IMG/VR virus record: IMGVR_UViG_3300034069_002149
Span: 27,650 to 91,649 of that record
Direction: 5' to 3' (one strand)
DNA from: a virus
DNA length: 64,000 nt
Shown: positions 43,728-48,216 of the stretch, one piece after another
Numbering within the stretch: position 1 is the stretch's first letter
How the letters are laid out: every line of letters starts with the position of its first letter
Translations under genes and position numbers: made by a program
The notes under the pieces: model-generated
Database searches by the model: none
Told to the model about the DNA's origin: nothing
The model's input: only the letters and a program-made list of their open reading frames with translations

Positions 43728-44176
43728 AGCAGTCCTTCCGAAATCCCAGCACCTACCGCAGGCTGTCTGAGCATTCCTTTAGGACACCGCGCTGGTCAGG
43801 CCCCGGCAAACAGCGCCCTGATACCCCGTGGGGGCGCTGCATTACCGCGTTCGATATCATCATGGATCATGCCAATGCGGAACCTGCTGCCCATATCCTG
43901 CTGGCAGCGAGTACGTCGATCAGCTTCACCAACATGCACATGGCGTGTGAATACTATCTGCCGCAGGCCGGAGCCGTGCGTAATGGCGGCATCTGGCGCT
44001 TTCCCAACGGCGCGCGGCTGCGGGTTTCCAAAGTCTCCAACGAGACAGACGCAGACAAGCTGGCTCATCTCGATTTCTCCCTGATCTCCGTCCAGGCGGA
44101 GGGTGATGTGGTCACCCTGCTCCAGCCGATGCTGACCCTCCAGGGGCGGATCATTCCCTTCCTCGGATATTACTGA
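43724..44176 (+). CDS. Degenerate paralog of the TerL ATPase core
   Basis: Collinear with TerL N-terminus (W.FPNGA.L). TGATG coupling to terL. Confidence 0.55.
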   Translation: MKQSFRNPSTYRRLSEHSFRTPRWSGPGKQRPDTPWGRCITAFDIIMDHANAEPAAHILLAASTSISFTNMHMACEYYLPQAGAVRNGGIWRFPNGARLRVSKVSNETDADKLAHLDFSLISVQAEGDVVTLLQPMLTLQGRIIPFLGYY

Positions 44177-47100
44177 TGTCACAAGCAGAGAATAAGGCCG
44201 CGTCAGATCCCGACGAGCCTGCCGATTTCGATCCGCTCAACGCCCCCTTGCCAGAACTCGACCGCAAGGAGCGACAGCGCCTGAAGCGCAAGGCTTATTT
44301 GCGGGACTACCACAGGGAATACAGCAAGAAGCGCAACACCGGCAGACCGCCAGGACGCCCGCCCAAGCCGAAGCAGACCGAACCTGCCCGCCCAAAGAAC
44401 TACGAGTCGATCTGGTCTCCCCAGTACAAGGAGGATGGCACTCCCGGCCCGCAGTTCGCTCTGCTGTCCTGTCCCTTCCCGGAGATCTTCTTTGGTGGCG
44501 CGCGTGGTGGCGGAAAAACAGACGGCGCTATCGGCAAATGGTTGCAGCACGCTCACCGCTACGGGCCGGACGCCAAGGGGGTGTTCTTTCGCCGCCGCTT
44601 CAAGCAGCTTGAAGAAGTCCAGGCTAGATGTTCCGCGCTGTTCCCCCGGATCGGAGCCACCTACCACAAGGGAGACGCGAATTGGGTATTTCCAAATGGC
44701 GCATTGCTGAAGCTAAGACATTTGTGGGATGTATCTGCGACTGAAGAATATCAGGGTCACAACTACTCATGGTTGTGTTTCGAAGAATTAACTAATTGGA
44801 GTACCCCTGACGCTATAGACAGGATGAGAGGTACACTCCGTTCCGCCAAGGGTGTGCCTGTCGAACTGATCATGACCGGCAACCCAGGTGGCTCTGGTCA
44901 CTGCGTTCCCTATGGAGAGGTTCTGACGCCGACCGGCTGGAAGGACATCTCCCACTTCCAGGTCGGTGACCCGGTGATGACCGTGACGGACAAGGGGGAG
45001 ATCGTCCAGTCGGAAGCCAGTCAGGTTCACAAGTCCCACTACACCGGGATGATGGCAGCCATCTCCGGCAGCGGCGTGACGATGGTCTGCACGCCCAACC
45101 ACAAGATCGGCGTCGTCAATTCCAGCAAATCCAAAATCACGCTCAAGCCGTTCAACCAACTCGGTTCCGGCTTCTCCATTCCGCGCGTCCTGAGCAGGCA
45201 AGGCAAGGAATCTCGGCTAGACGAGTCCGGCAGGTCAGAGCTTCACATCACGGCTGAGGCCGTGAAGATGCTCGACTTCGAGGGAGACATCTACTGCATC
45301 GGCGTTGCCAAGACCCACAGCTTCATCATCCGGCAGAACGGCTTCATCTGGGTCAGCGGCAACTCCTGGGTCAAGAACCGCTTCATCTCCCCGGCCCCGC
45401 AGGGCTGGACGCCGATCAAGGATGAGGAGACCGGTGCCTACCGCATCTACATCCCGTCCCGCCTCGAAGACAACACGGCGATGATGAAGAACGACCCGAC
45501 CTACGCCGCCCGCCTGCGCGGCACCGGATCTGCGGCGCTGGTCAATGCGTGGCTGAAGGGTGACTGGGATATCGTCGCGGGCGGCTTCTTTGACGATCTG
45601 ATCGTCCCGGATATCCACTTTCTCACCCCTTTCCACATTCCCTCGACCTGGAGTTACCGGCGTTCCTTCGACTGGGGGTCCGCATCTCCGGCCTCTCTCG
45701 GCATTTGGGCCGTGTCTGACGGCAACCCGGTTCCCGATCTGGACGGCTTCACCTTCCCTAGAGGTTCCCTGATCCGGATCAAGGAGTGGTACACCGTCGC
45801 CAAGACCAAGAACGGGGACATCGTGCCCAACGAGGGACTGCGCCTGACCAACTTGGCGCTCGGGGAAGGCATCGCGCAGCGCTCTCTGGGATACCGGTTC
45901 TCCGGCTGCGTTGCTGACCCGTCGATCTACTCCAAGCTCGGACGGGAAAGCATCTACGACGAGATGCGCAAGGGGGCGGCGGATGCCGGTCACAACCTGA
46001 TCATGTCCCCTGCCGACAACAACCGGATCGGCGGCTGGCAGAAGATGCGGGACATGCTGGAGAACGCCCGCGCAGACCGCCCGGAAAAGCCTGGACTGTG
46101 GGTGTTCGAGACCTGTCACCACTGGCTGCGCACCGTGCCTGTCATGCAGAGGTCGGACACAGATTTTGATGACGTTGATACAACCCAGGAGGACCACTGC
46201 CTGCACGGCAATACCTTGGTGGAAACCAGCAACGGCAATCTTCCTATTCGGGATCTGGTCGGGCAGACCGGGACTGTCCGGCAGGCGGATGGTTCGTGGC
46301 GGGCTTTCTATGATTGCCGCCTAACTCGGGCAGGGGCCAAAACGATTTCCATTGAGACGAGAGATGGGCGCTCTATCACCTGTACTCCGGATCATCTCAT
46401 CCTGACCACGGAAGGATGGATTGAGGCAGAAAAGACGCTTGGCAAAACCATTGTTTGTGTGCATGATGGGAACGCGCATAACGTTTCTCATCAGGAGGCA
46501 GGCAGTGAAGGTTACGGTTATCAGCGAGACCATTCAGGAGTTCATGGGAGTCCGGTACTACCTGTGCGACCAGTACTTCCAGAAGGATGGACGGAGATTG
46601 CACATCGAGGTGTGGGAGCAGAAATACGGCCCGGTGATGTCTGGCTATCACGTCCATCACAAGGACGAGGACAAGTCGAACAATCAGTTGAGCAATCTGG
46701 AAGCCTTGCCGGGAACGGAGCACAGGTCTCTCCACATGAGGCAGCCGGACAGGGTGGCTCAGTCCAGGGAGACCATCAAGGTCGCCAGATTAGCCGCATC
46801 GGAATGGCATGGCTCACAAGAAGGCCGGGACTGGCACTCCAGGCACTATCACGAAAATATCGCGCCGCTGAAGGAGGATTTGAGGGATCAGGTCTGCGAC
46901 GAGTGCGGAGCCTCCTACCAGATATCCATGATCTGGCAGAAAAATTCAAAGTTCTGCTCCAACAAATGCAGATCGGCGGCGAGACGGAAAAGCGGCGTGG
47001 ACGACGAGCAGAGGATTTGCGCGGCGTGCCAAGCGCCGTTCACGACCAACAAGTACACCAAGATCAAGACATGCAGTCACCAGTGCAGCGTCAATCTGAG

Positions 47101-47286
47101 GTGGGGTCGGACGTAGTCTCCATCCGGGACGGCGGAACGCATGACGTCTTCAATCTTGAAGTCGAAGGCACTCATGCGTTTGCCGTCAACGGCGGGCTGA
47201 TCGTCCACAACTGCGCCGATGATACACGCTATGTGTGTATGACTGGAGCAAGACAACTTAAGATCGGCGCTCTGGTTGGTCGGTAG
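44176..47286 (+). CDS. terL: Terminase large subunit precursor with two inteins
   Basis: Walker A GGARGGGKT, Walker B LCFEE, coupling motif TGNPGG. Splicing would restore the C-terminal DH-CADDTRY nuclease motif. Confidence 0.93.
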   Translation: MSQAENKAASDPDEPADFDPLNAPLPELDRKERQRLKRKAYLRDYHREYSKKRNTGRPPGRPPKPKQTEPARPKNYESIWSPQYKEDGTPGPQFALLSCPFPEIFFGGARGGGKTDGAIGKWLQHAHRYGPDAKGVFFRRRFKQLEEVQARCSALFPRIGATYHKGDANWVFPNGALLKLRHLWDVSATEEYQGHNYSWLCFEELTNWSTPDAIDRMRGTLRSAKGVPVELIMTGNPGGSGHCVPYGEVLTPTGWKDISHFQVGDPVMTVTDKGEIVQSEASQVHKSHYTGMMAAISGSGVTMVCTPNHKIGVVNSSKSKITLKPFNQLGSGFSIPRVLSRQGKESRLDESGRSELHITAEAVKMLDFEGDIYCIGVAKTHSFIIRQNGFIWVSGNSWVKNRFISPAPQGWTPIKDEETGAYRIYIPSRLEDNTAMMKNDPTYAARLRGTGSAALVNAWLKGDWDIVAGGFFDDLIVPDIHFLTPFHIPSTWSYRRSFDWGSASPASLGIWAVSDGNPVPDLDGFTFPRGSLIRIKEWYTVAKTKNGDIVPNEGLRLTNLALGEGIAQRSLGYRFSGCVADPSIYSKLGRESIYDEMRKGAADAGHNLIMSPADNNRIGGWQKMRDMLENARADRPEKPGLWVFETCHHWLRTVPVMQRSDTDFDDVDTTQEDHCLHGNTLVETSNGNLPIRDLVGQTGTVRQADGSWRAFYDCRLTRAGAKTISIETRDGRSITCTPDHLILTTEGWIEAEKTLGKTIVCVHDGNAHNVSHQEAGSEGYGYQRDHSGVHGSPVLPVRPVLPEGWTEIAHRGVGAEIRPGDVWLSRPSQGRGQVEQSVEQSGSLAGNGAQVSPHEAAGQGGSVQGDHQGRQISRIGMAWLTRRPGLALQALSRKYRAAEGGFEGSGLRRVRSLLPDIHDLAEKFKVLLQQMQIGGETEKRRGRRAEDLRGVPSAVHDQQVHQDQDMQSPVQRQSEVGSDVVSIRDGGTHDVFNLEVEGTHAFAVNGGLIVHNCADDTRYVCMTGARQLKIGALVGR
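44902..45363 (+). mobile_element. Mini-intein 1 (154 aa, no endonuclease)
   Basis: H|CVPYGEVLTPTGW, block B TPNHKI, block F/G IYCIGV..THSFII......SGN|S. Confidence 0.88.
46198..47211 (+). mobile_element. Intein 2 (338 aa) whose central region is the alternative-frame read of an HNH gene
   Basis: H|CLHGNTLVET, block B TPDHLI, block F/G DVFNLEVEGTHAFAVNGGLIVHN|C. Confidence 0.9.
46505..47116 (+). CDS. HNH endonuclease (203 aa) nested in the +1 frame inside intein 2
   Basis: AGGAGG at 46493-46498 plus GTG at 46505. H..VWE..YG.....YHVHHKDEDKSNNQLSNLEAL...EH.SLH, then three CxxC-type Zn modules. TAG at 47114-47116. Confidence 0.85.
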   Translation: MKVTVISETIQEFMGVRYYLCDQYFQKDGRRLHIEVWEQKYGPVMSGYHVHHKDEDKSNNQLSNLEALPGTEHRSLHMRQPDRVAQSRETIKVARLAASEWHGSQEGRDWHSRHYHENIAPLKEDLRDQVCDECGASYQISMIWQKNSKFCSNKCRSAARRKSGVDDEQRICAACQAPFTTNKYTKIKTCSHQCSVNLRWGRT

Positions 47287-47368
47287 GTCATCTCTTCTGG
47301 ACGGGGTTTTCTCTCGGGAGAGACAGGGGGATAGTGTCCGCCCACCTGTCCACTCAAGGAGGACCGAC

Positions 47369-47713
47369 ATGTATCACCCCATCAATGTCTCTCCCGAGAT
47401 CATTGGATACCGCGTCAATGCACAGGACGGCACCACCACCCACCTTCTGGCTCTGCCGGAAGACTTCCAGTTCGTCGGCTTCATGAAGACCAGCGAGGAC
47501 ATCCTGTCCTGCATCTACGTTCCGGCAGGACCCACCGGAAATCGGCCCATCCTCAAGGTCAAGACCCGCAAGGGGGCCAAAAGCTTTCTGATCGACTTTG
47601 CCGCCTATGGGCCTGGGGAATGCCCGCCGCCGCAGCCCGAGTCGGAGCCGCGCCCCCGGCAGATCGATTACGCCGCCATCACTCATGCCGTCAGTACCGG
47701 GAGCGCGTCATGA
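47369..47713 (+). CDS. Hypothetical protein
   Basis: AAGGAGG SD. Ends QIDYAAITHAVSTGSAS. Confidence 0.7.
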   Translation: MYHPINVSPEIIGYRVNAQDGTTTHLLALPEDFQFVGFMKTSEDILSCIYVPAGPTGNRPILKVKTRKGAKSFLIDFAAYGPGECPPPQPESEPRPRQIDYAAITHAVSTGSAS

Positions 47714-48216
47714 ACAGCACGCGCAGGCGGCTTATGGTGAAGGACCCCGCCCACGCCGTCGAGAAGTGGGTCCTTGAGGGAAATGCCTTCGGCCAGTTCG
47801 GCAACGGCGTGATCTTCTGTTCGACGGAGAAAGACGTCAATCTCTACATGCGGTTGGTGGAAAACGCCGCCGCGTTCCCGGCCTACATCAGGACCCGGAC
47901 GTTCAGCGGAGCCGTCAGCTACGCCATCGGCAGCGGCGCGAAGCTCGACATCATCCCGATCCGTGGTGTTCCTGACGCTTCCCATCTCGGCTCTGAGCGC
48001 TGGCAGTTCATGGTCTTCCATAACCCGACCCTGTGGTCAGACCGGACGCCGATCCGGCTTCTCCTGCCCCGTTTGGCTCCCGCCATCGGGGCGCGCACGA
48101 CACTTGTTTCTGTCGGGACTGAACTGGCCTCCCTCCTCGGCACGGACCCGAAGCCGGAAGAGAAGCCCAAAGAGATTGACTGGATGGCGATCACCAGAGC
48201 CATCAGCAACGGATAA
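47710..48216 (+). CDS. Second degenerate paralog of the TerL ATPase core
   Basis: AVEKW/FG..GNGVIF/GAKL/VFHNPTLWS align with TerL AIGKW/YG.DAKGVFF/GALL/CFEELTNWS. Ends EIDWMAITRAISNG. Confidence 0.55.
   Translation: MNSTRRRLMVKDPAHAVEKWVLEGNAFGQFGNGVIFCSTEKDVNLYMRLVENAAAFPAYIRTRTFSGAVSYAIGSGAKLDIIPIRGVPDASHLGSERWQFMVFHNPTLWSDRTPIRLLLPRLAPAIGARTTLVSVGTELASLLGTDPKPEEKPKEIDWMAITRAISNG

What the first reader, a model, noticed from the sequence alone, without database searches (positions are those of the whole stretch)
46198..47211. Homing-type HNH gene overprinted in the +1 frame inside a terminase intein, with its own ribosome-binding site
Seen: intein 2 of TerL has intact splicing blocks (C1, TPDH, F/G ...VHN|C), and splicing would rebuild the nuclease motif DH-CADDTRY, so the TerL frame must read through. 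The roughly 200 codons between blocks B and F look like nonsense in that frame. In the +1 frame they encode a complete 203-aa HNH nuclease (YHVHHKDEDKSNN...NLEAL...EH...H plus Zn modules) with AGGAGG-6nt-GTG at 46493-46507 and TAG at 47116. By hand, about 20 HNH codons end in T and none is followed by AA/AG/GA, which would create a stop in the intein frame. A rough estimate puts that near 1 in 1000 by chance, suggesting selection on both frames. Established: inteins normally carry their endonuclease in-frame between blocks B and F. Inference: this is a dual-coding mobile element whose endonuclease is made as a free protein, uncoupled from TerL expression and splicing. I cannot check whether this architecture has been reported.
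Basis: partly seen in the sequence, partly recalled or inferred. Interest (0 to 1): 0.92.

Follow-up and report, generated by a model that had tools for sequence, protein, structure and literature searches.

The report
Hidden nuclease gene inside terminase intein
A phage DNA-packaging gene carries a self-splicing protein insert (intein) whose middle encodes, in a shifted reading frame, a complete mobile-element nuclease, and both readings are kept intact by selection; a 2025 preprint described this layout for another nuclease type, but here it proves widespread.

Summary
TerL (44176-47286) carries two inteins. Intein 2 (46198-47211) is contiguous. Between its splicing blocks lies a 203-aa HNH_3 gene in the +1 frame (AGGAGG 46493-98, GTG 46505, TAG 47116).

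- **Open frame is not chance.** The TerL frame has no stop over the HNH gene. Shuffles expect 6.6 stops (P about 1.5e-4).
- **Same layout in relatives.** Four relatives (63-80% HNH identity) share the layout. Pooled with the window, 0 of 304 risky T-ending codons occur, against 171 of 727 elsewhere.
- **Selection differs by frame.** HNH-frame dN/dS is 0.09-0.22. The TerL-frame reading shows no amino-acid constraint and is predicted disordered.
- **Sister states exist.** One relative is an intein-less terL with the HNH free-standing just downstream. Another is decayed, with 6 stops in the TerL frame.
- **The family is large.** Sixty-seven stop-free loci (54 with both intein halves detected, 13 inferred from the N half) form 44 clusters at 60% identity. 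Five are published phages where the HNH is unannotated. The HNH is +1 or +2, sometimes between split halves or free-standing. No in-frame case turned up in the 98 loci or the best 150 of 1,113 cluster representatives.

Out-of-frame endonucleases in inteins were reported in a 2025 preprint (EndoVII-like, actinophages). An out-of-frame HNH in a non-intein insert was published in 2025. I therefore rate this a new variant of a known kind. Splicing, HNH expression and the cleavage target are inferred, not shown.

The parts
44176..47286 (+). terL precursor ORF (1036 aa; 544 aa after removal of both inteins)
   Evidence: ORF list. tblastn matches phage large terminases in two pieces flanking intein 1. 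Lengths.
44902..45363 (+). Intein 1: a 154-aa mini-intein in the ATPase domain (..GNPGGSGH|C ... SGN|S..), with no endonuclease
   Evidence: Boundaries read from the translation. Phage TerL homologues align in two pieces around it.
46198..47211 (+). Intein 2 (338 aa): contiguous, class-1-like, inserted in the nuclease-domain motif ..QEDH|C ... VHN|CADDTRY
   Evidence: Pfam Intein_splicing. Intein-less allele L098. AF2 model and Foldseek matches to mini-inteins.
46198..46473 (+). N-terminal Hint half (blocks A-B, including C1 and TPDH), intein residues 1-92
   Evidence: pLDDT 91-98. C1, T63 and H66 are invariant or nearly so across 35 inteins.
46477..47097 (+). TerL-frame read-through linker (intein residues 94-300): stop-free, no amino-acid constraint, predicted disordered
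   Evidence: pLDDT 34-54. TerL-frame dN/dS 1.7-2.3. No stops against 6.6 expected.
46493..46498 (+). Shine-Dalgarno AGGAGG for the HNH gene, 6 nt before the GTG. In the TerL frame it lies within the His-Gln-Glu-Ala codons.
   Evidence: Sequence. catcAGGAG(G) is conserved in five relatives (L093, L095, L096, L098 and the window), including the free-standing copy; L092 has AGGAA, and L094 and L099 have other purine-rich motifs.
46505..47116 (+). HNH_3 / I-HmuI-like homing endonuclease gene (203 aa) with a helical linker and two Cys4 zinc ribbons, in the +1 frame of terL
   Evidence: Pfam HNH_3. PHROG 15471, E 2e-46. AF2 pLDDT 95.5. I-HmuI Z 7.9. dN/dS 0.09-0.22.
47098..47211 (+). C-terminal Hint half (blocks F-G, ending ..LIVHN), intein residues 301-338. 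The HNH stop codon TAG (47114-47116) lies inside its first codons.
   Evidence: pLDDT 91-98. G333, V336 and N338 are invariant.
47212..47286 (+). C-extein (CADDTRY... 24 aa plus stop) carrying the end of the TerL nuclease motif
   Evidence: Aligns to the tail of the intein-less L098 TerL.

Best explanation
Intein 2 of terL is a composite mobile element: a splicing-competent intein hosting a complete, independently translated homing-endonuclease gene in another frame.

**Shown**
1. The two Hint halves are intact. They sit exactly at a conserved TerL nuclease motif that an intein-less allele shows uninterrupted.
2. The roughly 620 nt between them encode a well-folded I-HmuI-like HNH_3 protein with two zinc ribbons in the +1 frame. 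It has its own AGGAGG-GTG start, and its stop lies at the edge of block F. It is under strong purifying selection.
3. The same nucleotides read in the terL frame give about 207 residues with no amino-acid constraint and no predicted fold. They are kept free of stop codons by context-specific avoidance of T-ending HNH codons before AA/AG/GA.
4. The arrangement persists across deep divergence and recurs in many phages.

**Inferred**
1. Ribosomes translate TerL straight through the HNH gene. The junk segment acts as a flexible loop at the position where canonical inteins carry their endonuclease. The Hint halves associate and splice, giving a 544-aa TerL once intein 1 is also removed.
2. The HNH is made separately by internal initiation on the terL mRNA.
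3. During co-infection or phage-prophage encounters it nicks or cuts intein-less terL alleles near the QEDH/xADxxRY site. Repair then copies the intein plus HNH into them.

The free-standing sister copy lies 68 nt behind an intein-less terL and about 140 nt from the insertion site. This suggests the origin: a free-standing endonuclease gene that targeted terL moved into a mini-intein, the protein-level analogue of 'collaborative homing' described for introns. Gain of stops in the terL frame converts the same layout into the split-intein ('fractured gene') relatives.
For: - **Architecture and domains:**
- **Stop-free frame:** P 1.5e-4; 0/64 against 21/138.
- **Relatives with the same site, same +1 relation and both frames open:** L092, L094, L095, L096/97. 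Pooled risky codons are 0/304 against 171/727, p 2e-29.
- **Selection by frame:** HNH-frame dN/dS is 0.09-0.22 where dS could be estimated (it is saturated in most pairs). Differences concentrate at HNH codon position 3. TerL-frame dN/dS is 1.7-2.3.
- **Natural controls:** 13/13 free-standing and 13/13 split relatives have stops in both alternative frames. In the contiguous inteins with both halves detected, only the terL frame is stop-free and the third frame carries 7-18 stops on average. Decayed L093, which lacks the C-terminal Hint half, has 6 stops.
- **Intein-less allele:** defines the junction.
- **Folds:** Hint halves pLDDT 91-98, insert 34-54, matching mini-inteins. HNH pLDDT 95.5, with I-HmuI as the top structural match.
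- **Translation signal:** the SD is conserved in the clade. SD-like motifs precede 26/51 nested HNH genes against 15% background.
- **Not an assembly artefact:** the independent assembly is identical.
- **Family survey:**
Against: - There is no direct evidence for splicing, for the GTG-initiated protein or for the cleavage site. No RNA run holds the sequence.
- A 207-residue disordered insert could slow or lower splicing.
- Internal initiation must compete with ribosomes translating terL.
- Shuffle P values for some relatives are modest (0.05-0.5), especially in GC-rich +2 cases.
- Free-standing relatives also show some depletion of T before AA/AG/GA (30/306 against 157/719). Part of the avoidance may therefore be a general dinucleotide bias or a legacy of ancestry.
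- The record is a metagenomic provirus, so phage viability is not known.
Confidence: 0.82

Rival explanations
1. Assembly or sequencing artefact: two compensating frameshifts hide an ordinary in-frame HNH intein.
For: The source is a metagenomic contig. In-frame HNH inteins are known from the literature cited in 10.1101/2025.01.02.630785.
Against: - An independent assembly at depth 24.5 is identical with no gaps.
- The HNH has its own SD, start and stop.
- Five other contigs from different samples (L092, L094-L097) and five isolated phage genomes show out-of-frame nesting.
- No in-frame case occurs in 98 loci or in the best 150 cluster representatives.
Confidence: 0.01
2. The open terL frame is a by-product of GC-rich composition. 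The intein or terL is dead and only the HNH gene matters.
For: The region is 52-58% GC and long spurious ORFs are common there. One relative (L093) really is decayed.
Against: - P(no stop) is 1.5e-4. The third frame has 9 stops and the antisense frames have 3-12.
- AT-rich phiCDHM19 (30% GC) also keeps the frame open, P 2.5e-4.
- Free-standing relatives of similar GC have 2-10 stops.
- The Hint blocks are conserved and confidently folded.
- The record is an estimated 91%-complete provirus.
Confidence: 0.03
3. The HNH is not a homing enzyme. It is a packaging accessory nuclease, like the HNH proteins that assist terminases of HK97-like phages, and it is nested in terL to secure co-expression.
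For: Every family member found lies in or beside terminase genes. PMC11855218 notes that HNH proteins can aid terminases.
Against: - Distribution is sporadic among close relatives. The same HNH clade occurs free, nested, split or decayed.
- It belongs to Pfam HNH_3 and its best structural match is the homing enzyme I-HmuI.
- It sits exactly where inteins carry homing endonucleases.
- Adjacency to terL is what a free-standing endonuclease that targets terL would show.
Confidence: 0.07
4. The HNH is made as a fusion to the TerL N-extein and N-terminal Hint half by programmed +1 ribosomal frameshifting, not by internal initiation.
For: The HNH frame is open for about 100 nt upstream of the GTG (from 46406). 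A Hint-HNH fusion would resemble a canonical intein endonuclease.
Against: - A conserved SD-start lies at the same place as in the free-standing and split relatives, whose HNH begins at the homologous Met or Val.
- The upstream extension is not conserved and is closed by a stop at 46403-46405.
- The frame relation differs (+1 or +2) among relatives. A shared frameshift mechanism is therefore unlikely.
Confidence: 0.04

Closest known systems
Non-canonical actinophage inteins with the endonuclease in a separate reading frame (Gosselin, Arsenault & Gogarten, bioRxiv 10.1101/2025.01.02.630785)
   Same: The intein is contiguous and stop-free. The endonuclease ORF lies between the splicing blocks on the same strand in another frame. 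Hosts include the terminase large subunit. The authors propose origin by invasion of an intein by a free-standing endonuclease.
   Different: - Their same-strand case is an endonuclease VII-like enzyme in frame 3, and in that survey HNH inteins were in-frame.
- Here the enzyme is HNH_3 / I-HmuI-like, with no EndoVII Pfam match and no PhagesDB-type actinophage hits.
- The hosts span several bacterial phyla. Both +1 and +2 relations occur. An SD is present.
- Stop avoidance is demonstrated statistically here.
ShiLan domain: hidden out-of-frame HNH in a phage DNA methylase insertion (Arsenault et al., Genes 2025, PMC11855218)
   Same: A roughly 195-200-aa HNH with zinc-finger modules, a GTG start a few codons into the insert and a stop at its very end. 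The host frame reads through without stops as a disordered loop.
   Different: ShiLan has no splicing domains, so the insert stays in the methylase. No RBS was detectable and leaderless initiation was proposed. Here the insert is removed by an intein and a strong SD is present. My HNH queries did not find mycobacteriophage copies.
Fractured genes: split inteins with a free-standing endonuclease gene between the halves (Dassa et al. 2009, PMC2677866)
   Same: The gene order is the same: N-extein and IntN, endonuclease, IntC and C-extein. The endonuclease has its own translation signals. Relatives of this very element (L011, L013, L026, Vibrio phages, BL3) are true fractured terL genes, with the HNH stop overlapping the IntC start as ATGA or GTGA.
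   Different: In the window there is no stop in the terL frame, so the intein is contiguous and cis-splicing. Dassa's endonucleases were GIY-YIG and Vsr-like; they predicted HNH could do the same.
Canonical bifunctional inteins (in-frame LAGLIDADG or HNH endonuclease domain)
   Same: The endonuclease coding sequence sits in the same place, between blocks B and F. The presumed homing life cycle is the same.
   Different: The endonuclease is not part of the intein polypeptide. Its expression is uncoupled from host-protein synthesis and splicing.
Free-standing phage homing endonucleases acting beside their target, and collaborative or trans homing (e.g. T4 mobE, PMC2790892; review PMC3984707)
   Same: The sister copy L098 and Yuavirus-type copies are free-standing HNH genes immediately next to terL. 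The nuclease and the self-splicing element are separate products that move together.
   Different: The partner here is an intein rather than a group I intron. The nuclease gene is physically inside it, overprinted on its reading frame.

Membership tests
Intein (Hint-fold, class 1) | N-terminal nucleophile Cys1 and block B TxxH | tested here: met
   C1 at 46198-46200 and TPDH are present. C1 and H66 are invariant and T63 nearly invariant in 35 homologous inteins.
Intein (Hint-fold, class 1) | C-terminal His-Asn followed by a Cys/Ser/Thr +1 nucleophile | tested here: met
   The sequence reads ..LIVHN|C (47209-47214). N338 is invariant.
Intein (Hint-fold, class 1) | Hint fold formed by the N- and C-terminal parts | tested here: met
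   Pfam Intein_splicing E 5.7e-14. In the AF2 model, residues 1-92 and 301-338 have pLDDT 91-98. Foldseek probability is 1.0 to the Ssp DnaB, Npu DnaB and DnaE mini-inteins.
Intein (Hint-fold, class 1) | Precise insertion in a conserved host motif, with intein-less alleles known | tested here: met
   The L098 TerL is colinear up to QEDH and resumes at ADxxRY.
Intein (Hint-fold, class 1) | Protein splicing activity | not testable with these tools
   This needs expression of the precursor.
HNH_3 / I-HmuI-like homing endonuclease | HNH (beta-beta-alpha-Me) motif with the catalytic His and Asn residues | tested here: met
   Pfam HNH_3 scores 49.6 bits against a cut-off of 24.8. H51, H52, N60, H73 and H77 are invariant in 44 homologues.
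HNH_3 / I-HmuI-like homing endonuclease | Structural similarity to a characterised homing HNH | tested here: met
   VIA-align places I-HmuI (1u3e) first, with Z 7.9 and rmsd 2.5 A over 75 residues; the next hit has Z 4.4. Foldseek alone was not significant.
HNH_3 / I-HmuI-like homing endonuclease | Sporadic, mobile distribution | tested here: met
   The states free, nested +1, nested +2, split and decayed are interspersed on the HNH tree, needing at least 22 changes. The window's clade holds three states.
HNH_3 / I-HmuI-like homing endonuclease | Site-specific cleavage of the element-less allele | not testable with these tools
   This needs an in vitro or in vivo cleavage assay.
Intein with the endonuclease overprinted in another frame (non-canonical intein) | An intact endonuclease ORF between the splicing blocks, on the same strand in a different frame, with the intein frame uninterrupted | tested here: met
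   The HNH is +1 and the terL frame has no stops.
Intein with the endonuclease overprinted in another frame (non-canonical intein) | Both frames maintained by selection | tested here: met
   
Fractured gene / naturally split intein | A stop codon ends the N-half and the C-half has a separate start | tested here: not met
   There is no stop in the terL frame from 44176 to 47286. The feature is met in relatives L011, L013 and L026.
Canonical bifunctional intein | The endonuclease domain is part of the intein polypeptide (in-frame) | tested here: not met
   The terL-frame insert has no HNH motif, no Pfam hit and pLDDT 34-54.

The most novel reading that the evidence does not exclude
Overprinting is the stable, selected state of this partnership, not a brief intermediate. 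This terL-nuclease-site intein lineage and this HNH_3 / zinc-ribbon lineage have coexisted out of frame in at least 44 diverged lineages, in phages of Proteobacteria, Firmicutes and Actinobacteria, and were not seen fused. They interconvert with free-standing and split-intein forms. That would make the family a living series showing how inteins acquire endonucleases and how split inteins arise. It would also imply that uncoupling nuclease expression from the host protein is advantageous.
Probability: 0.5. Interest if true: 0.75.

Novelty: new variant of a known kind. Interest (0 to 1): 0.62.

Why it matters
**Annotation.** Large terminases with unexplained roughly 200-residue inserts hide a complete nuclease gene. 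This applies to published phages: Tetrasphaera TJE1, C. difficile phiCDHM19 and phiCD119, Acinetobacter Highwayman and Rhodobacteraceae LS06-MD07.

**Evolution.** One clade contains a free-standing endonuclease beside an intein-less target, contiguous inteins with the endonuclease overprinted in the +1 frame, and a decayed copy. Just outside it lie a +2 overprinted relative (L099, same intein lineage) and split-intein 'fractured' genes. These are the intermediates postulated by the 'splicing first' and gene-breaking models of intein evolution.

**Overlapping genes.** This is a clean natural case of overlap in which one frame is selected only to be stop-free. It can be measured at single-codon resolution: 0 of 304 risky codons.

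**Practical use.** The Hint halves tolerate a roughly 200-residue unstructured insert and have naturally split relatives, which may interest protein engineers.

Tried and rejected
- **Expression evidence.** No sequencing run holding the stretch is RNA, so expression could not be assessed.
- **Raw reads.** Only contigs were available, so per-read indel frequencies could not be seen.
- **Closest homologue.** The DNA of P0001 (82% identity) could not be fetched.
- **Foldseek on the HNH model.** The PDB search gave nothing significant (best I-HmuI, E 0.17). The exhaustive VIA search was needed.
- **Regulatory hairpin.** A hairpin just upstream of the SD (46464-46492) has z -2.5. The consensus fold over 7 relatives keeps only 6 pairs with little covariation. 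I do not claim it.
- **Internal promoter.** One promoter-like site was found against 0.8 expected by chance, so there is no support for an internal promoter.
- **Same family as the preprint?** I tested whether the preprint's EndoVII-like family is the same as this one. No Endonuclease_7 Pfam match was found and there were no PhagesDB-type actinophage hits.
- **In-frame relatives.** None of the best 150 cluster representatives (177-395 aa) carries a Hint domain. The remaining roughly 960 clusters with E <= 1e-30 were not inspected.
- **Complex prediction.** Not attempted, because no binding claim is made.


Full report
**1. What is in the window**

The window is part of a 143-kb IMG/VR provirus record. 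A 1036-codon ORF at 44176-47286 is the large terminase. Its exteins match phage TerL proteins in two pieces flanking a first insertion. Intein 1 (44902-45363, 154 aa) is a mini-intein in the ATPase domain.

Intein 2 runs from Cys 46198 to Asn 47211, followed by Cys+1. Pfam reports Intein_splicing for the terL frame (E 5.7e-14). It reports HNH_3 (E 3e-13, 49.6 bits against a cut-off of 24.8) for the +1-frame ORF from GTG 46505 to TAG 47116. AGGAGG lies at 46493-46498, six bases before the GTG.

**2. Is the open terL frame more than chance?**

Over the 203 HNH codons the terL frame has no stop. The third + frame has 9 and the antisense frames have 3-12.
- Shuffling codon order gives a mean of 6.6 stops and P(0) of 1.5e-4.
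- Permuting synonymous codons gave 0 and 1 stop-free outcomes in two runs of 20,000.
- In this frame relation a stop arises only when an HNH codon ending in T precedes AA, AG or GA. The observed count is 0/64, against 21/138 T-ending codons elsewhere (Fisher p 2.9e-4).

An independent assembly of the probable source run is identical across 46150-47290, with no gaps, at depth 24.5.

**3. Close relatives**

A protein search with the HNH found relatives of 50-82% identity on short metagenomic contigs. I read their DNA.
- **Same layout.** L092 (80%), L095 (65%), L096/L097 (64%) and L094 (63%) have the same intein at the same terL site (..QEDH|C ... VHN|CAD.TRY). The HNH is again +1 and both frames are open.
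- **Codon avoidance.** Pooled over these four and the window, T-ending codons before AA/AG/GA number 0/304, against 171/727 elsewhere (p 2e-29).
- **Selection by frame.** Differences concentrate at HNH codon position 3. HNH-frame dN/dS is 0.09-0.22 where dS could be estimated; it is saturated in most pairs. The same nucleotides scored in the terL frame give 1.7-2.3. The HNH protein is conserved, and the terL-frame peptide is constrained only to lack stops.
- **Intein-less allele.** L098 (61%) is an intein-less terL, 71% identical to the window's TerL up to QEDH and then continuing VADECRY. The HNH is free-standing 68 nt behind the terL stop. This fixes the splice junction.
- **Decayed copy.** L093 (70%) has lost the C-terminal Hint half and the CADDTR motif. 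There the terL frame has 6 stops over an intact HNH ORF. It is a natural control for relaxed selection.
- **Different frame relation.** L099 (50%) has the same intein lineage but the HNH in the +2 frame, again with both frames open.

On an HNH tree the window groups with L092, L093, L094, L095, L096 and L098 with 99% SH-aLRT support.

**4. The wider family**

*Published phages.* tblastn of the HNH against GenBank phages and reading of the loci gave three kinds of result.
- Free-standing copies lie beside terL or the terminase genes in Pseudomonas PAE1, Sphaerotilus SN1, Salmonella Shemara and Acinetobacter BP10.
- Copies lie inside the annotated TerL in Tetrasphaera TJE1, Acinetobacter Highwayman, C. 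difficile phiCDHM19 and Rhodobacteraceae LS06-MD07. Each is out of frame (+2) with the TerL frame open. phiCDHM19 has only 30% GC, yet P(0) is 2.5e-4.
- Split arrangements occur in Vibrio phages and Brochothrix BL3.

*IMG/VR census.* A profile scan returned more than 554 relatives, of which the best 80 were kept. I classified them by tblastn of the Hint halves.

| State | Loci (of 80) |
|---|---|
| Contiguous, HNH +2 | 54 (13 inferred from the N half only) |
| Contiguous, HNH +1 | 3 |
| Interrupted (split) | 14 |
| Free-standing | 8 |
| Undetermined | 1 |
| In-frame | 0 |

*Stops in the alternative frames.* Free-standing (13/13) and split (13/13) copies always carry stops in both alternative frames, with means of 5.5 and 16.3 for the free-standing copies. 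In the contiguous inteins with both halves detected, only the terL frame is clean.

*Independence.* The 67 overprinted loci form 44 clusters at 60% HNH identity. Shuffles predict 2.3 open frames among the 44 representatives.

*Search for in-frame fusions.* An exhaustive profile search found 1,113 cluster representatives at E <= 1e-30. The best 150 are all 177-395 aa, and the ten longest have no Hint domain. No in-frame fusion was seen.

*Split relatives.* In L011, L013 and L026 the N-half ORF stops just after the HNH start. The HNH stop overlaps the start of the C-half as ATGA or GTGA. This is the fractured-gene layout of Dassa et al..

**5. Structure**

With an alignment of 35 homologous inteins, AlphaFold2 gives pLDDT 91-98 for residues 1-92 and 301-338 and 34-54 for residues 94-300. 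The confident part matches mini-intein structures (Ssp DnaB, Npu DnaB, DnaE, gp41-1) with probability 1.0.

The +1-frame protein folds with mean pLDDT 95.5. Its N-terminal 82 residues match the homing endonuclease I-HmuI best (Z 7.9, rmsd 2.5 A over 75 residues; the next hit has Z 4.4). Two invariant Cys4 modules follow.

**6. Translation signals**

The catcAGGAG(G) motif before the start is conserved in L093, L095, L096 and L098 as well as the window, which includes the free-standing copy. L092 has AGGAA, and L094 and L099 have other purine-rich motifs. An SD-like tetramer precedes a candidate start in 26 of 51 distinct nested HNH genes, against 15% background. A hairpin next to the SD and an internal promoter are not supported.

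**7. Mechanism**

*Shown.* There are two overlapping coding readings. One is selected for its protein. The other is selected only for absence of stops and is flanked by conserved Hint halves at a site where an intein-less allele exists.

*Inferred.* TerL is translated through the HNH gene, and the junk loop sits where canonical inteins hold their endonuclease. Splicing restores a 544-aa TerL. The HNH is made separately from its own SD and GTG and drives homing into intein-less terL.

The free-standing sister beside an intein-less terL suggests the origin. A terL-targeting free-standing endonuclease gene invaded a mini-intein, as proposed in general terms by Gosselin et al.. This is analogous to collaborative or trans homing of introns (PMC2790892, PMC3984707).

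**8. Comparison with the literature**

- Gosselin, Arsenault and Gogarten (bioRxiv 10.1101/2025.01.02.630785) report actinophage inteins with endonucleases in another frame or on the antisense strand, including in TerL. Their same-strand case is EndoVII-like in frame 3, and their HNH inteins are in-frame.
- Arsenault et al. (PMC11855218) report an out-of-frame HNH with zinc fingers in a non-splicing methylase insertion without a detectable RBS.
- Full-text searches found no report of an out-of-frame HNH in an intein.
- The family here is distinct from theirs.

The kind is therefore known, but only just. The window adds a fifth HEN/intein arrangement, a much wider host range and quantitative proof of stop avoidance. 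It also links free, nested and split states within one family.

**9. Verdict**

Novelty is reduced by the 2025 reports, so I rate this a new variant of a known kind with interest 0.62.

Noticed in passing
window 44902-45363: TerL carries a second intein: a 154-aa mini-intein in the ATPase domain (GNPGGSGH|C...SGN|S) with no endonuclease in any frame that I noticed. It lies about 830 nt upstream of intein 2, so it could travel with it by co-conversion.
   Followed up: partly
L001 2393-3040 (TJE1); L002 2423-3070 (Highwayman); L003 2056-2721 (phiCDHM19); L006 2495-2980 (LS06-MD07): Published phage genomes annotate a single long TerL and miss a complete HNH_3 gene overprinted in the +2 frame of its intein. 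phiCD119 shows the same region annotated as hypothetical.
   Followed up: yes
L011 3020-3723; L013 3501-4207; L026 2936-3642; L005 (Vibrio phage 1.245.O); L007 (Brochothrix BL3): These are naturally split terL genes ('fractured genes') with this HNH between the intein halves. In L011, L013 and L026 the HNH stop overlaps the start of the C-terminal intein half (ATGA or GTGA), which suggests translational coupling. They may be a source of new natural split inteins.
   Followed up: partly
L093 1-720: A decayed relative keeps the N-terminal Hint half and an intact HNH ORF (70% identical). It has lost the C-terminal Hint half and the CADDTR motif, and the terL frame has 6 stops over the HNH.
   Followed up: partly
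window 46464-46492: A predicted hairpin ends right at the Shine-Dalgarno of the HNH gene (z -2.5). Only 6 pairs are kept in relatives, with weak covariation. It recalls the hairpins that regulate phage homing endonuclease genes but is not established.
   Followed up: partly
L098, L093, L004: Free-standing and decayed relatives still show partial depletion of T-ending codons before AA/AG/GA (30/306 against 157/719). This is either a general TA/TG boundary bias or a footprint of a recent overprinted ancestry.
   Followed up: no
window 47276-47713 and 47620-48216: Two overlapping ORFs downstream of terL share motifs (..ITHAVSTGSAS / ..ITRAISNG tails) and are conserved in L093. Another first-stage note calls them terL-related paralogues. 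I did not examine them.
   Followed up: no
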